DNA of 64,000 nt, taken from contig DASYDZ010000209.1 in assembly GCA_036499305.1 (NCBI GenBank), positions 12 through 64,011 of the forward strand, in the 5' to 3' direction. Position numbers and translations under genes: made by a program. Under the pieces are notes generated by a model. The model ran no database searches, was not told the DNA's origin, and saw only the letters and a list, made by a program, of their open reading frames with translations. Of this stretch, positions 48,302-53,313 are shown piece after piece. Position 1 is the first letter of the stretch. Each line of letters starts with the position of its first letter. The stretch comes from Candidatus Didemnitutus sp. GTDB taxonomy: Bacteria; Verrucomicrobiota; Verrucomicrobiia; Opitutales; Opitutaceae.

Positions 48302-49762
48302 CTATCGGCTGGCGGCCACAAACGCCGGGATGATGCCGTCGAACGACCCGTTGGTGAAGAACACCACCAGGGCCGGCCGCTCCGTTTCGTCGCGGACTCC
48401 CTGCTTCAACTGTTCCAGCAGTTCCGCATTCGTCGGGGCGGAGTGAGCGGTCACACCCTGGGTTTCGAGGTGCTGCGCCACCGCCTCCGCATCGAACCGC
48501 TCGCTCTCCTTCAACGGCTGCGCACGGTCGATCGCCCCGAGGTAAACCTCGTCGGCCTGCGCGAGTGCCCGCATGAATCCCGCCTGCATGACCTTCGTGC
48601 GCGAGGTGTTGCTGCGGGGCTCGAATGCCGCGTGGATGGCGTGATCCGGATAGCGCGCGCGGAACGAAAGCAGTGTTTCCGCGAGCGCTGTCGGATGGTG
48701 CCCGAAATCCTCCACCACCTTCAGGCGCGGCGTATCGACCAGCAGCTCCTGCCGTCGTTTCACTCCGCGGAATCGAGCCAGCGGCGCCAGTTTGATCGCG
48801 TTCGATCCGCCCTCGAGCATCGCGCGGCCGACCTCGTCGGGCGAAACCTCCCGGGGAAGCACCGCCAGTTGCGCGGCGAGCGCGGCCATGGCGGCGTTTC
48901 GGGCGTTGTAGAGTCCGGGTTGCGCCCACGTGACCCGGGTCCACGGCCGGCCGCGCCACGAAAGGTCGAAGCTGGCCGTGCGCGCATCCTCGCCAAACTG
49001 GCTGAGCCGAAGATCATTTCCCTCGCCGGTGCCGACGCGCAGGACGCGGGTCCAGGGCATCGCCCCGAGCGCGCGCAGGTTGCTGTCGTCGCCGTTCATC
49101 ACGATCCAGCCCTGACGCGGCACGATGCGGGTCAGGTGCAAAAAGGTCCGCTGCACGTCCTGCAGGTCGCGAAAGATGTCCGCGTGGTCGAACTCGAGAT
49201 TGTTCAGGACGGCGATCGACGGCAGATAATGGATGAACTTGCTCCGCTTGTCGAAAAACGCGCTGTCGTATTCATCCCCCTCGATCACGAACGGATCGGC
49301 GACCGCCCCGAGATGACTGCCGGTGGGAGGATCCTGCGGCACACCGCCGATCAGGAAGCCCGGATCGCGTCCGTTTTCCCGCAGCAGGAACGCCGCCAGC
49401 GCGGTCGTGGTGGTCTTGCCATGGGTGCCGCAGACGACGAGGTTGCGGCGACCGGCGAGGATGCGGCGCGAAAGATACTCCGGCAGCGATTCGAACGGCA
49501 ACGATCGGGCATCGAGCAGCCATTCGACCTCGGGATTGCCCCGGGACATCGCATTGCCGATGACGACCAGGTCGGGTTTGATCCGCTCGAGTCGCACCGG
49601 ATCGTAGCCCTCGTGCAGCTCGACGCCGGCGGCCGCGAGGACCGTGCTCATCGGCGGATAGACACCCAGGTCGGCTCCCAACACCTCGTCGCCCGCCGCC
49701 CGTGCCAGCAGCGCGGCGTTCCCCATCGCCGTTCCGCATATTCCCATGAAGTAGACGCGCAT
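48302..49762 (-). CDS. mpl: Murein peptide ligase (Mpl/MurC family)
   Basis: GICGTAMG, GTHGKTTT, EGDEYDSAFFDKRSKF, EDFGHHPTA, FEPRSNT. Confidence 0.93.
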   Translation of the reverse strand: MRVYFMGICGTAMGNAALLARAAGDEVLGADLGVYPPMSTVLAAAGVELHEGYDPVRLERIKPDLVVIGNAMSRGNPEVEWLLDARSLPFESLPEYLSRRILAGRRNLVVCGTHGKTTTTALAAFLLRENGRDPGFLIGGVPQDPPTGSHLGAVADPFVIEGDEYDSAFFDKRSKFIHYLPSIAVLNNLEFDHADIFRDLQDVQRTFLHLTRIVPRQGWIVMNGDDSNLRALGAMPWTRVLRVGTGEGNDLRLSQFGEDARTASFDLSWRGRPWTRVTWAQPGLYNARNAAMAALAAQLAVLPREVSPDEVGRAMLEGGSNAIKLAPLARFRGVKRRQELLVDTPRLKVVEDFGHHPTALAETLLSFRARYPDHAIHAAFEPRSNTSRTKVMQAGFMRALAQADEVYLGAIDRAQPLKESERFDAEAVAQHLETQGVTAHSAPTNAELLEQLKQGVRDETERPALVVFFTNGSFDGIIPAFVAASR

Positions 49763-49879
49763 CTATTTCAGTTTCGTTCTATTTGTTTCCGTAGAGTGAA
49801 AACGCGAGGTAAGGCATTTCAGTTGTTATCCGTTAAATGCCACTTCATGCGGTGGTGTGGCATAACAGGAGTGGCATAA

Positions 49880-50629
49880 TCATCCCTCAGCTCGGCGGGC
49901 GGGACCGACATCTGTTTTGAGGATTCCGCGTTTGATGATCCTTTCCAGTGCCTCCTCCACGGAGGGATAGGGCTGACGCGGCGCGAGAACCATACTTAAG
50001 GGCGTGACAACCGTCATGGTCGATGTGGCTTTCGACCCCATCGATGCCCAGACCGTATCCATTCGCTCGCGGCCCAACTCCCGGCAGGATTCGATCATTT
50101 CGGCTTTGATTTGGTCGACCAGTGGAAGAATTAGGCCGTGCACATGCTCTAGATATTCGAGAGCCTTTTCACGAGTGGGGATCGTGCCCTTGTGGATAAC
50201 CGCATTTCGAAATTCGATCTGCTTTTGATCCAAAAGGGTTGGCTCGGTCCGGTTGTGAAGGACGTACGCTCCTACGAACATTCCGAGCTGTCGTTCAGAT
50301 TGCTTGCTCACAAGTTTCCATGCTTTTCCCACGTGAGAACCTGAGATTTTATGCTCCCGAAAAACCACCTTCGTGTAATACTCATAAAAGCGCTCCAGGG
50401 ATGAGGTAGCAGATGAGACCGCTTCCCTGTGGTAGGAATCTGCTATCGCGTTGAGCGCTATCTCGAAAAGCACCTCGAATTTGTCCTCTTGCCGGACCAC
50501 CACGTTTTTGTGCCCGACGCCGCATTCAAATTCGTACACGGAGGCTTCATTTGCGGGAAGAGAAACGAGATCGCGCTTCGCTCCCTCGGATTCAAAAAAA
50601 CATTTGGTGCAATAGAATCTTAACTTCAT
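49880..50629 (-). CDS. Hypothetical low-GC protein with N-terminal Zn-ribbon-like Cys/His and HEPN-like RNAVIH motif
   Basis: CTKC...CGVGH; helical core; FRNAVIH (R-x4-H). Confidence 0.7.
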   Translation of the reverse strand: MKLRFYCTKCFFESEGAKRDLVSLPANEASVYEFECGVGHKNVVVRQEDKFEVLFEIALNAIADSYHREAVSSATSSLERFYEYYTKVVFREHKISGSHVGKAWKLVSKQSERQLGMFVGAYVLHNRTEPTLLDQKQIEFRNAVIHKGTIPTREKALEYLEHVHGLILPLVDQIKAEMIESCRELGRERMDTVWASMGSKATSTMTVVTPLSMVLAPRQPYPSVEEALERIIKRGILKTDVGPARRAEG

Positions 50630-50931
50630 CGCCGCTCTCGCATACCTTGTCAGCGCGGCTGTCGAGTTCAACAAAAACCCCGCCGCGCGCACCAGACAAA
50701 TTCTTGGCCGTGGACGGTGCCAGCCGGGCGTCCTTCAACGCCGCCGGTCCCTCCGCCATATTCGAAGCCCGCGGCGCCAAGGCCTTGAGCGAGGGCACCG
50801 AAGTAGCCCGACGTAGGCAACCTCCAATCGCCAACTGCTTGGTTGCTACCCATCCATGAGGCAATTATCTCGAGGATCTACGGGTCGCGCCCAGAGCACC
50901 AACCAGTATAAACCGCGCAAGAAAGCCAGTT

Positions 50932-51510
50932 ATGGAAACACTTTATAAATTTCTTTTGTCGAGCGGCACCGTCATTGCCATTGGGACCGCCATGTTGGTG
51001 TTTCTTGGCATCCGCTCGGAGCATAGCTGTTGGACCGGTTTTGGCCTACCATTCTATCAGTTCCTGCCATCGACCAGGGATCTAGCATTTAAAGGCTTTG
51101 AAATCGCAAAGAAGGCATTTTGGCCAGCACACTTGATTTGGAGACTGTTCCTCGTAATTGGAATTCCGCCACTTTGTTTCGCGGCGTACTGGCTGAGTGG
51201 TTCAGAGTATCGCGAGGAATGGTTTGCGGGAATTATAATCCTGCCGGTACTGCTTTTCTGGCGCGCGTTGCATGCAGCCGCCAAACACGGCGAAAACAAC
51301 CAAAAAACTCTTAGAGAAGAGGGTCTGGATTGCACTTTCGTTCTTAAGGATCTTACGAAGGTGAAAGGATGCTTTCTTCTTTTTGGAAATGGGTATTATG
51401 TGATGAAAATTGAAAGCGGGTCCGATCTTCTTATTTTTCCGTCGGCAGAGGTAAAAAGCGTCTTGCTCCAATCTCGTAACAAATCCCAGGAACCGCCCGT
51501 GGTACTCTAA
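50932..51510 (+). CDS. Hypothetical low-GC membrane protein
   Basis: About three hydrophobic segments plus a beta-rich soluble C-terminus; AT-rich codons. Confidence 0.65.
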   Translation: METLYKFLLSSGTVIAIGTAMLVFLGIRSEHSCWTGFGLPFYQFLPSTRDLAFKGFEIAKKAFWPAHLIWRLFLVIGIPPLCFAAYWLSGSEYREEWFAGIIILPVLLFWRALHAAAKHGENNQKTLREEGLDCTFVLKDLTKVKGCFLLFGNGYYVMKIESGSDLLIFPSAEVKSVLLQSRNKSQEPPVVL

Positions 51511-51918
51511 AGCGCCGCCATATTGCCTGCAGGTAGAACTCTTCGGGGTCCACCGATTTGATAGTCGGCGGGATAGCCGGTGTCGTCTTCGTAAAGCGCG
51601 ATGATCGGCACCGTGGGGTCCGATCCGGCTGAGAATGTGTTTCCTTCGATCACGCCCGATCCCCGCGAATCTGCCTCCAGTTCGATTGCCCGCTATTGGT
51701 CGGGCAGTCGAAGGCGTTGGCGTGGATTTCCCACCAGCATGCGCCCAAGCTTCCCAAGGGGCACAAAGACTCAAACCAAGAGTGCGCGCCCGCACCTCGA
51801 TGCCGCTCGGATCCAACGCGCGCGGCCGGGTCGCACCGACGGAAGCGCGGCGGATGTTTGAGCGGAGGCTGGCGACCGGTCTACACCCGCCCAGGCCTCA
51901 AACCGAACGCGCGTTCGC

Positions 51919-53313
51919 TCAGTATCCGCTTTGGGCTTCCTTGGCCGCTCCTTCGCCTTCCTTCGGGCCCGCCATCCAGTCACGCGTCCCGTAGCGGGCA
52001 TAGAAGGCGACCCGCTCGCGAACCGAATCGTCAGCCATCTTCCGGGCCGCCTCGCGGTTCCCCTTGAAATGATGCTCGATCAGCCATTTTCGGCCGTACT
52101 TCACATGCGTGACTTCATCGGACCAGTCGAAGTCCTGAAAGGTCGTCATCAAGGGATGCCGGGCGACGTCGCGGCAGAACTCCCATTCTCCGCGCTTGCC
52201 GCCCGGATGCGCCATGGTCCCGGCCTCAATGGCAAGAGAGAGATGAGCCAGGGCTTTTTGTGGCGACTCGGCCAGCGCATGGATCCCGAAGCCGACCCAG
52301 CTTTCGAGGTCCGGAAGAGCGATGCCCTCCTGCTCCAGCGCGGCCTGCCCCATGAGAGAATGCCGGGTTTCATCCCAGCAATGGCGGGCCAGGTCGACCA
52401 CGGCTTCGGACGGCAGGTCGTCCCATTCGGCAAGGATCACCGCCACGGTTTCGGCCGCGCACATTTCCTGGGATCGAACCCACATCATTTGCCGCAGCTT
52501 TTCGTCGCCGCCGAGTTTCTCCGGGAGTCGCTTGGGAATGGCGGCGGTGAACCGCTTGTCGCGCGCAAACTCGTGGGTGACCTGATAACGCTCGACCGCC
52601 CGCGGGACGGGCCGGCGGTCCGCCGAAGGCACCGGGTCGCGGCCCAGGACGCCACCGGCGTGGTGAAGAAACTGTTCGAAATGGGCGCGCCACTCCGCCC
52701 GGACCTGGCCGCCACCGGGGACCGAGGCAAAGGCATCGAGGAATCGCTGTCCCAAAACCTGCCGTTCGCGTTCCTCGGCCAGGATGGTTTTGAGAATGCG
52801 AACGGTGGGAAAGTCCACCAAAGGCTGCGTCTCGGCCACGTACCACTCGAGCGCGCGGATCAAAGCGGGCCCGATCACGTCAAGAAGTCCGGTGCAAAGC
52901 TCGAGGGAACCCGGGCTGTGCAGAACCTCGGTCAGCAAGTCCCCCAGTTGGTAGGAGAGCACCTTTCCCACTTCGAACTTGTTGGAGCGAAGTTCGGTGA
53001 GCCGGTCTTCCAGCGCCTTGAAATGCGTGGCATCCTCCCACATCCAGCGGGCCAGCGCCGCCTTCAATTCCCACTCCGGCGTATCGGGCATGCGCGATGA
53101 ATAAATCGACACGCATCCCCTCTTGAGCGCGGCAAGGCGGGCCACCATTCGCGCACACTCGTCGACCGGCAGGCCCGGACGCGAGACCTCGTCGATGCCC
53201 GCGTAACGGGGAAGCTGGTCCAGGAAGGCGAGCCCCGATCGGCGATGATCAATACCCTTCTGACGGATGGGAGGCAGAAATTCGGGCGACGAATCAGCTT
53301 GGGGAGTATTCAT
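51919..53313 (-). CDS. Tandem ferritin-like (DUF455-like) protein
   Basis: WEDATH in the N-half; QEMCAAE, WDETRH, IEAG, DEVTH in the C-half. Confidence 0.75.
   Translation of the reverse strand: MNTPQADSSPEFLPPIRQKGIDHRRSGLAFLDQLPRYAGIDEVSRPGLPVDECARMVARLAALKRGCVSIYSSRMPDTPEWELKAALARWMWEDATHFKALEDRLTELRSNKFEVGKVLSYQLGDLLTEVLHSPGSLELCTGLLDVIGPALIRALEWYVAETQPLVDFPTVRILKTILAEERERQVLGQRFLDAFASVPGGGQVRAEWRAHFEQFLHHAGGVLGRDPVPSADRRPVPRAVERYQVTHEFARDKRFTAAIPKRLPEKLGGDEKLRQMMWVRSQEMCAAETVAVILAEWDDLPSEAVVDLARHCWDETRHSLMGQAALEQEGIALPDLESWVGFGIHALAESPQKALAHLSLAIEAGTMAHPGGKRGEWEFCRDVARHPLMTTFQDFDWSDEVTHVKYGRKWLIEHHFKGNREAARKMADDSVRERVAFYARYGTRDWMAGPKEGEGAAKEAQSGY

What the first reader, a model, noticed from the sequence alone, without database searches (positions are those of the whole stretch)
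49880..50629. Zn-ribbon + HEPN-like (RNAVIH) protein
Seen: N-terminal CTKC...CGVGH, a helical core (FEVLFEIALNAIADSYHREAVSSATSSLERF) and FRNAVIH. Established: R-x4-H is the HEPN RNase catalytic motif of toxins and abortive-infection effectors. No antitoxin is evident, which suggests trigger-dependent activation, perhaps through the Zn ribbon (inference).
Basis: partly seen in the sequence, partly recalled or inferred. Interest (0 to 1): 0.65.

Follow-up and report, generated by a model that had tools for sequence, protein, structure and literature searches.

The report
Solo zinc-domain HEPN RNase-like gene
This gene encodes a small zinc-binding domain fused to a HEPN (RNase-type) domain; it belongs to a large, unnamed family carried by prophages, integron cassettes, plasmids and defence islands, so it is most likely an untested one-gene anti-phage suicide RNase.

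Summary
Window 49880-50629 (- strand) is an intact 249-aa ORF with C7-x2-C10 ... C36-x3-H40 and FRNAVIH (R141-N142-x3-H146).

- **Family:** it has at least 1,638 clusters at 50% identity and no Pfam, NCBIfam or PADLOC model. Its only match is PHROG 19381, "unknown function".
- **Conservation:** in 111 diverse members, R141 is kept in 111/111, N142 and H146 in 110/111, E79 in 111/111, and the four zinc ligands in 110-111 each.
- **Fold:** AlphaFold2 models are confident (pLDDT 92.7 and 96.8). The three best PDB fold matches of the helical domain are all HEPN proteins (2q00 chains A and B, 2hsb; TM 0.5-0.7), though Foldseek E-values are weak.
- **Context:** across more than 90 loci no partner gene is conserved. 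Members sit in Acinetobacter and Pseudomonas prophages, SPbeta-like phages, 41 IMG/VR contigs, plasmids, defence islands and integrons. One lies beside a RAZR/PD-T7-4 homologue, and in two integrons the gene is the first cassette.
- **In this window:** the gene lies in a 1.8-kb low-GC islet between housekeeping genes.

Best reading: a stand-alone, trigger-activated HEPN RNase for phage defence. It has the same design as RAZR but is not detectably related to it by sequence. No member has been tested experimentally.

The parts
49880..50629 (-). Complete gene, 249 aa plus stop: zinc domain + HEPN-like domain + variable C-terminal tail
   Evidence: ORF and translation; 302 homologues; 1,638 representatives at 50% identity; phrog_19381, E 9e-57.
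50492..50629 (-). N-terminal zinc-binding beta domain, residues 1-46. Ligands are C7, C10, C36 and H40 (CCCH); it is zinc-ribbon-like, but the exact class was not determined.
   Evidence: Ligands conserved in 110-111 of 111 members. The AF2 model has strands 2-6, 21-25, 31-35 and 41-46 and helix 8-13. A few members give weak Pfam hits to Zn_ribbon_Brz and Zn_ribbon_8 (E about 0.004).
50096..50491 (-). HEPN-like all-alpha domain, residues 47-178. Helices: 50-63, 67-92, 97-107, 111-126, 135-145, 153-177.
   Evidence: AF2 pLDDT 96.8 for residues 47-200. Foldseek top hits 2q00_A/B and 2hsb are HEPN-T proteins (classified as such in PMC3710099). This is the most conserved part of the protein (entropy 1.92 bits).
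50192..50209 (-). RNAVIH = R141-N142-x3-H146, the predicted catalytic Rx4H motif at the end of helix 135-145
   Evidence: sequence; R 111/111, N 110/111, H 110/111; position in the model.
50381..50401 (-). S-L-E-R-F-Y-E (residues 77-83) in the long second helix; E79 is invariant and is a candidate for the conserved helix-2 acidic residue of HEPN domains
   Evidence: E79 111/111, R80 107/111, E83 107/111. PMC3710099 describes a conserved acidic residue in helix 2. Its 3-D proximity to R141/H146 was not tested.
50282..50302 (-). Q-S-E-R-Q-L-G (residues 110-116), a family-specific, nearly invariant motif at the start of helix 111-126
   Evidence: S111, E112, R113 and Q114 each 109/111; G116 111/111.
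49883..50095 (-). Variable C-terminal part, residues 179-249: helix 179-197, short strand 203-205, helix 224-236, disordered end
   Evidence: model; entropy 3.3-3.5 bits, the least conserved part.
49763..51600 (.). Low-GC islet (about 48-58% GC against about 65% in the flanks) that holds this gene and a divergent orphan ORF. It lies between mpl (48302-49762, -) and a ferritin-like gene (51919-53313, -).
   Evidence: composition; ORFs; the mpl product's cluster is named UDP-N-acetylmuramate:L-alanyl-gamma-D-glutamyl-meso-diaminopimelate ligase by a source.

Best explanation
The gene encodes a stand-alone, single-protein abortive-infection / phage-defence effector.

Shown here:
- It is an intact member of a very large, horizontally mobile family.
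- It has a CCCH zinc-binding N-terminal domain.
- It has a HEPN-fold helical domain with an invariant R-N-x3-H motif and an invariant glutamate in the preceding long helix.
- No partner gene is conserved.

Inferred:
- The HEPN domains dimerise or oligomerise to form a composite, metal-independent RNase site, as in other HEPN RNases.
- The enzyme is kept inactive in uninfected cells.
- A phage-derived cue, sensed by the variable zinc domain and/or the variable C-terminal tail, switches it on.
- Active enzyme cleaves cellular and phage RNA, stops translation, and aborts the infection.

This is the design experimentally established for RAZR (PD-T7-4), but it is built here from a different HEPN family. 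In this genome the gene arrived by horizontal transfer as part of a 1.8-kb low-GC islet.
For: Motif and ligand conservation:
- R141 111/111, N142 and H146 110/111, E79 111/111; zinc ligands 110-111 of 111.

Fold:
- AF2 pLDDT is 92.7 for the full protein and 96.8 for the domain.
- The top three PDB hits of the domain are HEPN proteins 2q00_A, 2q00_B and 2hsb (probability 1.00/1.00/0.96, TMq 0.47-0.58, TMt 0.56-0.70).
- Lower hits include Csx1, Csx1-Crn2, a toxin-antitoxin complex (7bxo), AbiV and LinB.
- The motif lies at the end of helix 135-145, followed by a loop and helix 153-177. This matches the HEPN definition in PMC3710099.
- Weak sub-threshold sequence signals all point to HEPN families: HEPN_RiboL-PSP in 7 members, HEPN_MAE_28990, and the PADLOC Csx1/Csm6 and Cas13a models.

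Mobile and defence context:
- Acinetobacter and Pseudomonas prophages.
- SPbeta-like and Lacticaseibacillus phages.
- 41 IMG/VR contigs, with 16 of 40 genes in the terminal 10% of the contig against about 8 expected.
- Plasmids.
- Directly beside a PD-T7-4/RAZR homologue, beside putAbiC + ParE/Phd, and beside AAA_21 + RloB.
- Near integron integrases in 7 of 80 species loci, with attC-like sites in the six examined; the gene is the first cassette in L029 and L084.

No conserved partner in more than 90 loci.

Sporadic, multi-phylum distribution: 171 hits among 185,579 species genomes.

Precedents for single-gene HEPN + zinc-domain defences: RAZR (PMC13017515) and HEC-08 (bioRxiv 10.1101/2024.01.29.577857).
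Against: - No member of the family has been tested experimentally, and none matches any PADLOC model.
- Foldseek E-values are weak (0.1-0.65). The fold assignment rests on probability, TM-score and motif placement.
- No Pfam HEPN-clan model reaches threshold.
- Profile-profile comparison with a RAZR-like alignment gives a probability below 1%.
- In this window the gene is not in a prophage or a recognisable defence island. It sits between housekeeping genes, and its only islet companion is an orphan ORF.
- Dimerisation, zinc binding and the 3-D proximity of E79 to R141/H146 could not be checked, because no coordinates or multimer prediction were available.
- There are no transcription data: only one DNA run, a soil metagenome, holds the sequence.
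Confidence: 0.55

Rival explanations
1. It is an addiction or stabilisation toxin of mobile elements (integron arrays, prophages, plasmids). Its antidote would be something not recognised here: a small or fast-evolving neighbouring ORF, an antisense or cis RNA, or an intramolecular inhibitory segment. Its main role would be element maintenance rather than phage defence.
For: - The gene is found as an integron cassette, and toxin-antitoxin systems are known to stabilise chromosomal integrons (bioRxiv 10.1101/2024.07.02.601686).
- HEPN toxins of TA pairs exist; the toxin-antitoxin complex 7bxo is among the fold hits.
- In the window, a divergent orphan ORF and two short unsupported ORFs lie upstream.
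Against: - No neighbour is conserved in more than 90 loci.
- No Rfam RNA or tandem repeat lies nearby.
- ORF2 has no relative in 5.8 billion protein clusters.
- One relative (L002) sits with housekeeping genes on both sides and no recognisable defence or mobile-element gene nearby.
Confidence: 0.12
2. It is a phage-serving gene carried by temperate phages for their own benefit, for example a host-takeover or anti-defence RNase, or a regulator of lysis/lysogeny. Non-phage copies would then be relics.
For: Presence in PHROG 19381, in sequenced phages and in 41 IMG/VR contigs.
Against: - Many copies lie outside phages: integron cassettes, plasmids, defence islands, plain chromosome.
- In prophages it sits in cargo positions, often near contig ends or between lysis and terminase genes, rather than in conserved functional modules.
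- Some prophage copies are oriented against their neighbours.
Confidence: 0.1
3. It is a catalytically inert or non-nuclease HEPN protein: a nucleotide-, ligand- or RNA-binding adaptor or regulator, like the substrate-binding HEPN domains attached to nucleotidyltransferases.
For: - The closest structural matches (2q00, 2hsb) are HEPN-T proteins from families whose motif is incomplete. According to PMC3710099, the 2q00 family lacks the R and the 2hsb family typically lacks the H.
- LinB, a nucleotidyltransferase, also appears among the hits.
Against: Non-catalytic HEPN domains typically lose the Rx4-6H motif (PMC3710099). Here R, the polar N after it, and H are all essentially invariant, as is a helix-2 glutamate.
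Confidence: 0.08
4. It is a housekeeping RNA-processing enzyme of this organism.
For: Here and in one relative (L002) it is flanked by housekeeping genes.
Against: - It lies in a low-GC islet.
- Its distribution is sporadic: 171 of 185,579 species genomes.
- Its contexts are overwhelmingly mobile elements.
Confidence: 0.03

Closest known systems
RAZR (ring-activated zinc-finger RNase) = PD-T7-4, E. coli (Zhang et al., Nature 2026, PMC13017515)
   Same: - One-protein system of similar size.
- N-terminal zinc-binding domain followed by a divergent HEPN RNase domain with conserved catalytic Arg and His.
- No antitoxin.
- Carried on mobile or defence loci.
- One family member (P0051, Oceanobacter) lies directly beside a PD-T7-4 homologue.
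   Different: - No match to DUF4145 (PF13643) or to the PADLOC PD-T7-4 model, although the neighbouring P0264 matches that model at 1e-10 as a positive control.
- hhalign against a RAZR-like alignment gives a probability below 1%.
- Motif spacing is R-x4-H here, against R146...H154 (x7) in RAZR.
- Zinc ligands are CCCH in about 46 residues, against a Cys4 ribbon in about 65.
- RAZR structures do not appear among the top 50 fold hits.
- The most variable part here is the C-terminal tail, not the zinc domain alone.
HEPN-T minimal HEPN proteins (PF05168 / PaREP1-8; PDB 2hsb, 2q00)
   Same: Best structural matches of the helical domain (TMt 0.56-0.70). Both are classified as HEPN in PMC3710099.
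   Different: - No sequence match.
- Those proteins are about 120 residues, have no zinc domain, and have incomplete motifs (the 2q00 family lacks the R; the 2hsb family typically lacks the H).
- Here the full RNxxxH is invariant, and the domain carries an extra helical insert and a C-terminal extension.
[quoted passage not shown]
   Same: A single protein combining a HEPN domain (Rx4-6H needed for defence) with zinc-binding modules.
   Different: The domain order is reversed (HEPN N-terminal, zinc domains C-terminal). DUF3644 is not matched by this family.
Integron-cassette HEPN family (PDB 3jrt) and 'Esos' (a V. cholerae integron cassette with only a HEPN-like domain, bioRxiv 10.1101/2024.07.02.601686)
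   Same: Solo HEPN-type genes carried as integron cassettes. Esos is reported to protect against phage by growth arrest or cell death.
   Different: - 3jrt is not matched by the family profile in the PDB sequence search (E up to 10) and is not among the top 50 fold hits.
AbiD/AbiF (Abi_2) and RiboL-PSP-HEPN clade of abortive-infection HEPN proteins
   Same: Solo Abi-type HEPN proteins. 7 of 111 members give weak hits to PF18735 HEPN_RiboL-PSP (best E 0.011).
   Different: All hits are below threshold, and the family consensus gives no hit. Those families have no CCCH zinc domain as a rule.

Membership tests
HEPN superfamily | Conserved Rx4-6H motif with a polar residue (N/D/H) directly after the Arg | tested here: met
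   R141-N142-A-V-I-H146; R 111/111, N 110/111, H 110/111. Definition from PMC3710099.
HEPN superfamily | [quoted passage not shown] | tested here: met
   The AF2 model (pLDDT 96.8) has helices 50-63 and 67-92, an insert of helices 97-107 and 111-126, then helices 135-145 and 153-177.
HEPN superfamily | [quoted passage not shown] | tested here: met
   Helix 135-145 ends at I145, H146 begins the loop (HKGTIP), and the next helix starts at 153.
HEPN superfamily | Conserved acidic residue in helix 2, near the active site | tested here: inconclusive
   E79 is invariant (111/111) in helix 67-92. Its spatial proximity to R141/H146 could not be measured.
HEPN superfamily | Structural similarity to solved HEPN domains | tested here: met
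   The domain model's top 3 PDB hits are 2q00_A, 2q00_B and 2hsb (probability 1.00/1.00/0.96; TMq 0.51/0.58/0.47; TMt 0.63/0.70/0.56). Foldseek E-values are only 0.11-0.65.
HEPN superfamily | Significant sequence-profile match to a curated HEPN-clan family | tested here: not met
   No Pfam, NCBIfam or PADLOC hit above threshold for the protein, for 111 members or for the consensus. Only sub-threshold hits were seen: HEPN_RiboL-PSP, HEPN_MAE_28990, Csx1/Csm6 and Cas13a. HHpred against Pfam/PDB was not available.
HEPN superfamily | Metal-independent RNase activity dependent on the R and H of the motif | not testable with these tools
   Needs biochemistry.
RAZR / PD-T7-4 | C-terminal DUF4145-type HEPN domain (PF13643) | tested here: not met
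   No PF13643 hit for the protein or any of 111 members. A RAZR-like neighbour gene in L006 does carry PF13643.
RAZR / PD-T7-4 | Match to the PADLOC PD-T7-4 model | tested here: not met
   0 hits for P0001, P0017 and P0003, and no PD-T7-4 hit for P0045 or P0024. Positive control P0264 matches at E 1.1e-10.
RAZR / PD-T7-4 | Profile-profile homology to RAZR-like proteins | tested here: not met
   hhalign of A2 against A4 (24 RAZR-like sequences) gives probability 0.94% over 27 columns.
RAZR / PD-T7-4 | N-terminal zinc-binding domain preceding the HEPN domain in a single antitoxin-less protein | tested here: met
   The architecture is shared. Ligands are CCCH here, whereas the paper describes a Cys4 ribbon.
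RAZR / PD-T7-4 | Activation by assembly around ring-shaped phage proteins (portal, recombinase) | not testable with these tools
   Needs phage escape genetics and structural work.
HEPN-MNT type II toxin-antitoxin | Adjacent minimal nucleotidyltransferase (MNT) antitoxin gene | tested here: not met
   No conserved neighbour of any kind in 10 + 80 loci. No nucleotidyltransferase was called in the listed neighbourhoods.
Integron-cassette HEPN (PDB 3jrt) | Sequence or fold match to 3jrt | tested here: not met
   The profile search of PDB sequences found nothing at E up to 10. 3jrt is absent from the 50 listed hits of both fold searches.

The most novel reading that the evidence does not exclude
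The family is an independent, second lineage of antitoxin-free 'assembly-sensing' immune RNases. A CCCH zinc domain, packed together with a hypervariable C-terminal tail, would recognise a multimeric phage structure. That recognition would drive the HEPN domains into an active oligomer, convergent with RAZR but built on an unrelated HEPN scaffold. The scaffold's extra invariant motifs (DGYxRE, SLERFYE, QSERQLG) might confer a specific RNA target such as a tRNA. Its spread as first integron cassettes and prophage cargo would make it one of the more common unrecognised defence genes.
Probability: 0.2. Interest if true: 0.7.

Novelty: new variant of a known kind. Interest (0 to 1): 0.5.

Why it matters
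If confirmed, this would add a widespread defence family that current defence-annotation resources miss entirely: at least 1,638 clusters at 50% identity, spread across many bacterial phyla and some archaea, phages, plasmids and integrons. It would also provide a second, sequence-unrelated example of the "zinc domain + HEPN, no antitoxin" design. That would allow a test of whether RAZR's activation-by-assembly principle is general. Tractable homologues exist in laboratory systems, including SPbeta-like phages of Bacillus subtilis and prophages of Acinetobacter and Pseudomonas.

Tried and rejected
1. Direct family assignment failed. Pfam, NCBIfam, PADLOC and PDB sequence searches found nothing with the protein, with 111 members, with the family consensus or with the family profile.
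2. RAZR membership is rejected: no DUF4145 or PD-T7-4 match, and hhalign probability is below 1%.
3. A two-gene module with the divergent ORF2 (50932-51510) is rejected as a conserved system. ORF2 has no relative in the 5.8-billion-cluster database and none in 92 loci.
4. A small upstream ORF as antitoxin (61 aa at 50668-50853, or 90 aa at 50592-50864) has no homologue in any locus. It is unsupported.
5. An RNA antitoxin or repeat array (type III TA style) is not indicated: no Rfam match and no meaningful tandem repeat.
6. Flanking direct repeats, a tRNA target or an integrase for the islet were not found.
7. An attC site downstream of the window's gene was not found. There is only a short hairpin with the core-like boxes in the wrong order (read), unlike the clear attC-like sites in L028, L029 and L084.
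8. The full-length fold search against viral structures (BFVD) gave nothing meaningful.
9. The promoter/terminator scan was no better than shuffles.
Full report
**1. The observation**

The - strand of window 49880-50629 holds an intact ORF of 249 codons plus stop.
- C7-T-K-C10 and C36-G-V-G-H40;
- the helical stretch FEVLFEIALNAIADSYHREAVSSATSSLERF;
- FRNAVIH (R141-N142-A-V-I-H146, window 50192-50209).

The longest frame begins at GTG 50692 (270 aa), and one public gene call is an N-terminally shortened 219-aa version (P0002). Homologues all start at an MKL/MRL that aligns with ATG 50629 and include the first CxxC.

A single R-x4-H is not informative in itself. It turns up in 45% of shuffles of this protein, and RNx3H in 1.2%. 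Its weight comes from conservation, described below.

**2. A large, unnamed family**

- The protein matches no Pfam, NCBIfam or PADLOC model and no PDB sequence.
- It does match PHROG 19381, "unknown function", at E 9e-57.
- The word-indexed protein search gave 302 relatives. All that carry a source name are called "hypothetical", apart from one generic "phasin" label.
- The exhaustive search of 50%-identity representatives gave 1,638 hits at E <= 1e-3, of which 1,366 are at E <= 1e-10.

In an alignment of 111 representatives (about 35% identity to the query; A2) the following residues are essentially fixed:

| Residue | Conserved in |
|---|---|
| C7 | 110/110 |
| C10 | 111/111 |
| C36 | 110/111 |
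| H40 | 110/111 |
| D64 | 109/111 |
| Y66 | 108/111 |
| R68 | 108/111 |
| E79 | 111/111 |
| R80 | 107/111 |
| E83 | 107/111 |
| W104 | 108/111 |
| S111, E112, R113, Q114 | 109/111 each |
| G116 | 111/111 |
| R141 | 111/111 |
| N142 | 110/111 |
| H146 | 110/111 |
| G148 | 110/111 |
| P151 | 110/111 |

By region, mean column entropy is:
- helical domain, residues 47-178: 1.92 bits (best conserved);
- zinc domain, residues 1-46: 2.67 bits;
- last about 70 residues: 3.3-3.5 bits (least conserved).

**3. Fold**

AlphaFold2 with the 111-sequence alignment gives a confident model (pLDDT 92.7, pTM 0.89). It has three parts:
- a small beta domain (strands 2-6, 21-25, 31-35, 41-46) carrying the four zinc ligands;
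- an all-alpha domain (helices 50-63, 67-92, 97-107, 111-126, 135-145, 153-177, 179-197);
- a tail with a short strand and one more helix.

Fold search results:
- Foldseek of the full model against the PDB put the Sulfolobus protein 2q00 first (probability 0.96). AbiV (9bj7) and LinB (3jyy) appeared lower down.
- I then modelled residues 47-200 alone (pLDDT 96.8).
- Its three best PDB hits are 2q00_A, 2q00_B and 2hsb. Probabilities are 1.00, 1.00 and 0.96; TM normalised by the query is 0.51, 0.58 and 0.47; TM normalised by the target is 0.63, 0.70 and 0.56; rmsd is 4.0-4.5 A.
- Both 2q00 and 2hsb are classified as HEPN-T proteins in the reference analysis of the superfamily (PMC3710099).
- The other listed hits with fold-like rmsd (below about 8 A) are Csx1-Crn2 (8y7f) and a toxin-antitoxin complex (7bxo). 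The Csx1 (6qzt) and LinB hits have rmsd near 14 A. The remaining hits are TPR or 14-3-3 proteins with rmsd of 15-21 A, which is noise.
- Foldseek E-values (0.1-0.65) are not significant on their own, as is usual for small helical bundles.

Independent support comes from the position of the motif. [quoted passage not shown] It also describes a conserved acidic residue in helix 2 and an insert between helices 2 and 3. In the model:
- RNAVIH ends helix 135-145, and H146 opens the loop before helix 153-177;
- invariant E79 lies in the long helix 67-92;
- two extra helices lie in between.

I could not measure distances because coordinates are not exposed.

Sub-threshold sequence signals also point only to HEPN families:
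- PF18735 HEPN_RiboL-PSP in 7 of 111 members and PF18737 HEPN_MAE_28990 in one;
- the PADLOC Csx1/Csm6 and Cas13a models.

I conclude that the domain is a HEPN domain of a family not yet represented in the curated libraries.

**4. Zinc domain**

The CCCH ligands are as conserved as the catalytic motif. The first pair (C7, C10) lies at a strand-to-helix junction and the second (C36, H40) in a beta-hairpin turn. A few members give weak hits to zinc-ribbon models. I call it zinc-ribbon-like and leave the exact class open.

**5. Context in the window**

- The gene lies in a 1.8-kb stretch of 48-58% GC within a region of about 65% GC.
- The stretch sits between mpl (48302-49762) and a ferritin-like gene (51919-53313).
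- The only other ORF of the islet is divergent: 50932-51510, 192 aa, three hydrophobic helices. It matches nothing but itself in 5.8 billion protein clusters and nothing in any related locus.
- There is no tRNA, integrase or flanking repeat.
- There is no Rfam RNA or repeat array.
- No promoter signal stands out above shuffles.
- The sequence comes from a soil metagenome. The closest relatives of the protein are in Spartobacteria and Chthoniobacterales MAGs (47% and 45% identity).

**6. Context elsewhere**

*Phages and prophages*
- Acinetobacter prophages, next to lysis/tail genes and a umuDC-SRAP cargo cluster (L001, L008, L009).
- A Pseudomonas prophage, between the terminase region and the holin, on the opposite strand (L004).
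- SPbeta-like Bacillus phages L4 and L6, and Lacticaseibacillus phages.
- 41 IMG/VR contigs. In these, 16 of 40 genes fall in the terminal 10% of the contig (about 8 expected if uniform) and 25 of 40 lie within 5 kb of an end. Contig ends are not necessarily prophage ends.

*Plasmids*
- Sphingobium, Paenibacillus, Bacillus, Rhizobium and Methylobacter plasmids.

*Defence-type neighbourhoods*
- Immediately upstream of a zinc-ribbon + DUF4145 protein that matches PADLOC PD-T7-4 at 1e-10 (Oceanobacter L006).
- Beside putAbiC and Phd/ParE (L010).
- Beside AAA_21 + RloB (L011).

*Species genomes*
- A scan of one genome per species found 171 relatives in 185,579 species.
- These span Proteobacteria, Bacteroidota, Firmicutes, Cyanobacteria, Nitrospirota, Planctomycetota, Verrucomicrobiota, Acidobacteriota, Patescibacteria and an archaeon, Geoglobus.
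- I clustered all ORFs within 3 kb in 80 of these loci. The only recurrent neighbour is an integron integrase, in 7 loci (TIGR02249, 483-495 bits against a cut-off of 265).
- In L029 and L084 the integrase is divergent and directly upstream, so the gene is the first cassette.
- attC-like sites (…TAAC… palindrome …GTTAGG…) follow the gene in the six loci examined.

No other partner recurs. The family is therefore a self-contained, horizontally mobile, one-gene module.

**7. Mechanism proposed**

Shown:
- the architecture, the invariant HEPN catalytic triad-like set (E79, R141-N142, H146) and the zinc ligands;
- mobility and the absence of a partner gene.

Inferred from established HEPN biology (PMC3710099) and from RAZR (PMC13017515):
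- HEPN domains pair to make a composite, metal-independent RNase site.
- The protein is inactive until infection.
- A phage cue, read by the variable zinc domain and/or the still more variable C-terminal tail, rearranges the oligomer.
- RNA cleavage then halts translation and aborts infection.

I put this at about 0.55. The rivals are:
- an addiction toxin with an unseen antidote (0.12);
- a phage-serving function (0.10);
- a non-catalytic HEPN (0.08);
- a housekeeping RNase (0.03).

The remainder is unassigned.

**8. Comparison with known systems**

- **RAZR/PD-T7-4** is the closest by design: an N-terminal zinc domain plus a divergent HEPN domain, no antitoxin, abortive infection. This protein fails each sequence-based membership test. 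It has no DUF4145 match and no PD-T7-4 model match, although the neighbouring gene passes that model as a positive control. hhalign probability is below 1%. It also differs in motif spacing (x4 against x7) and in ligands (CCCH against Cys4).
- **HEC-08** has the reverse domain order and a DUF3644 HEPN domain.
- **The integron-cassette HEPN family 3jrt** is not matched.
- **'Esos'**, a V. cholerae integron cassette with "only a HEPN-like domain" that arrests growth on infection, could be related.

**9. Verdict**

Its interpretation is supported as far as computation can go. This is a new, well-defined HEPN family with a zinc domain, that is, a new variant of a known kind of defence. It is not a new kind of system, and it has no experimental support yet. 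Interest is moderate (0.5). The family is large, invisible to present defence annotation, and easy to test in laboratory strains.

Noticed in passing
window 50932-51510 (+): A divergent 192-aa ORF shares the low-GC islet. It has three predicted hydrophobic helices and a soluble C-terminal half. It matches nothing but itself in the 5.8-billion-cluster protein database and nothing in 92 related loci, so it is an orphan of unknown status.
   Followed up: yes
window 49826-49879: Directly 3' of the gene's stop lies GTTAAATGCCAC-N13-GTGGCATAAC, an imperfect inverted repeat. A second GTGGCATAA follows 14 nt later (D9). The arms resemble integron or Xer core boxes (GTTRRRY / RYYYAAC), but they are in the wrong order for an attC site. 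It could be a terminator hairpin or a recombination scar.
   Followed up: partly
L006 6001-7595 (Oceanobacter kriegii): A member of this family and a RAZR/PD-T7-4 homologue (zinc ribbon + DUF4145, PADLOC E 1e-10) lie in tandem on the same strand, 95 bp apart. These are two unrelated zinc-domain HEPN genes side by side.
   Followed up: partly
L029 2817-4726 and L084 2884-4732: In a beta-proteobacterial MAG and a Pseudomonas isolate, the family gene is the first cassette next to a divergent integron integrase (TIGR02249), and an attC-like palindrome follows it. Five further loci (L027, L028, L031, L043, L058) also have an integron integrase within 3 kb.
   Followed up: partly
L005 5001-5726 (Bacillus phage SPbetaL4, CDS WIT27454.1; also SPbetaL6): Two SPbeta-like phages carry a family member (35% identity over residues 1-176), annotated as hypothetical. 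It lies on the opposite strand to its neighbours. This is a convenient laboratory model for testing the family.
   Followed up: no
window 50592-50864 (-): Two overlapping short ORFs (61 aa Gly-rich, and 90 aa) lie upstream of the gene in the slightly GC-richer middle of the islet. Neither has a homologue in any related locus, so they are probably not genes.
   Followed up: yes
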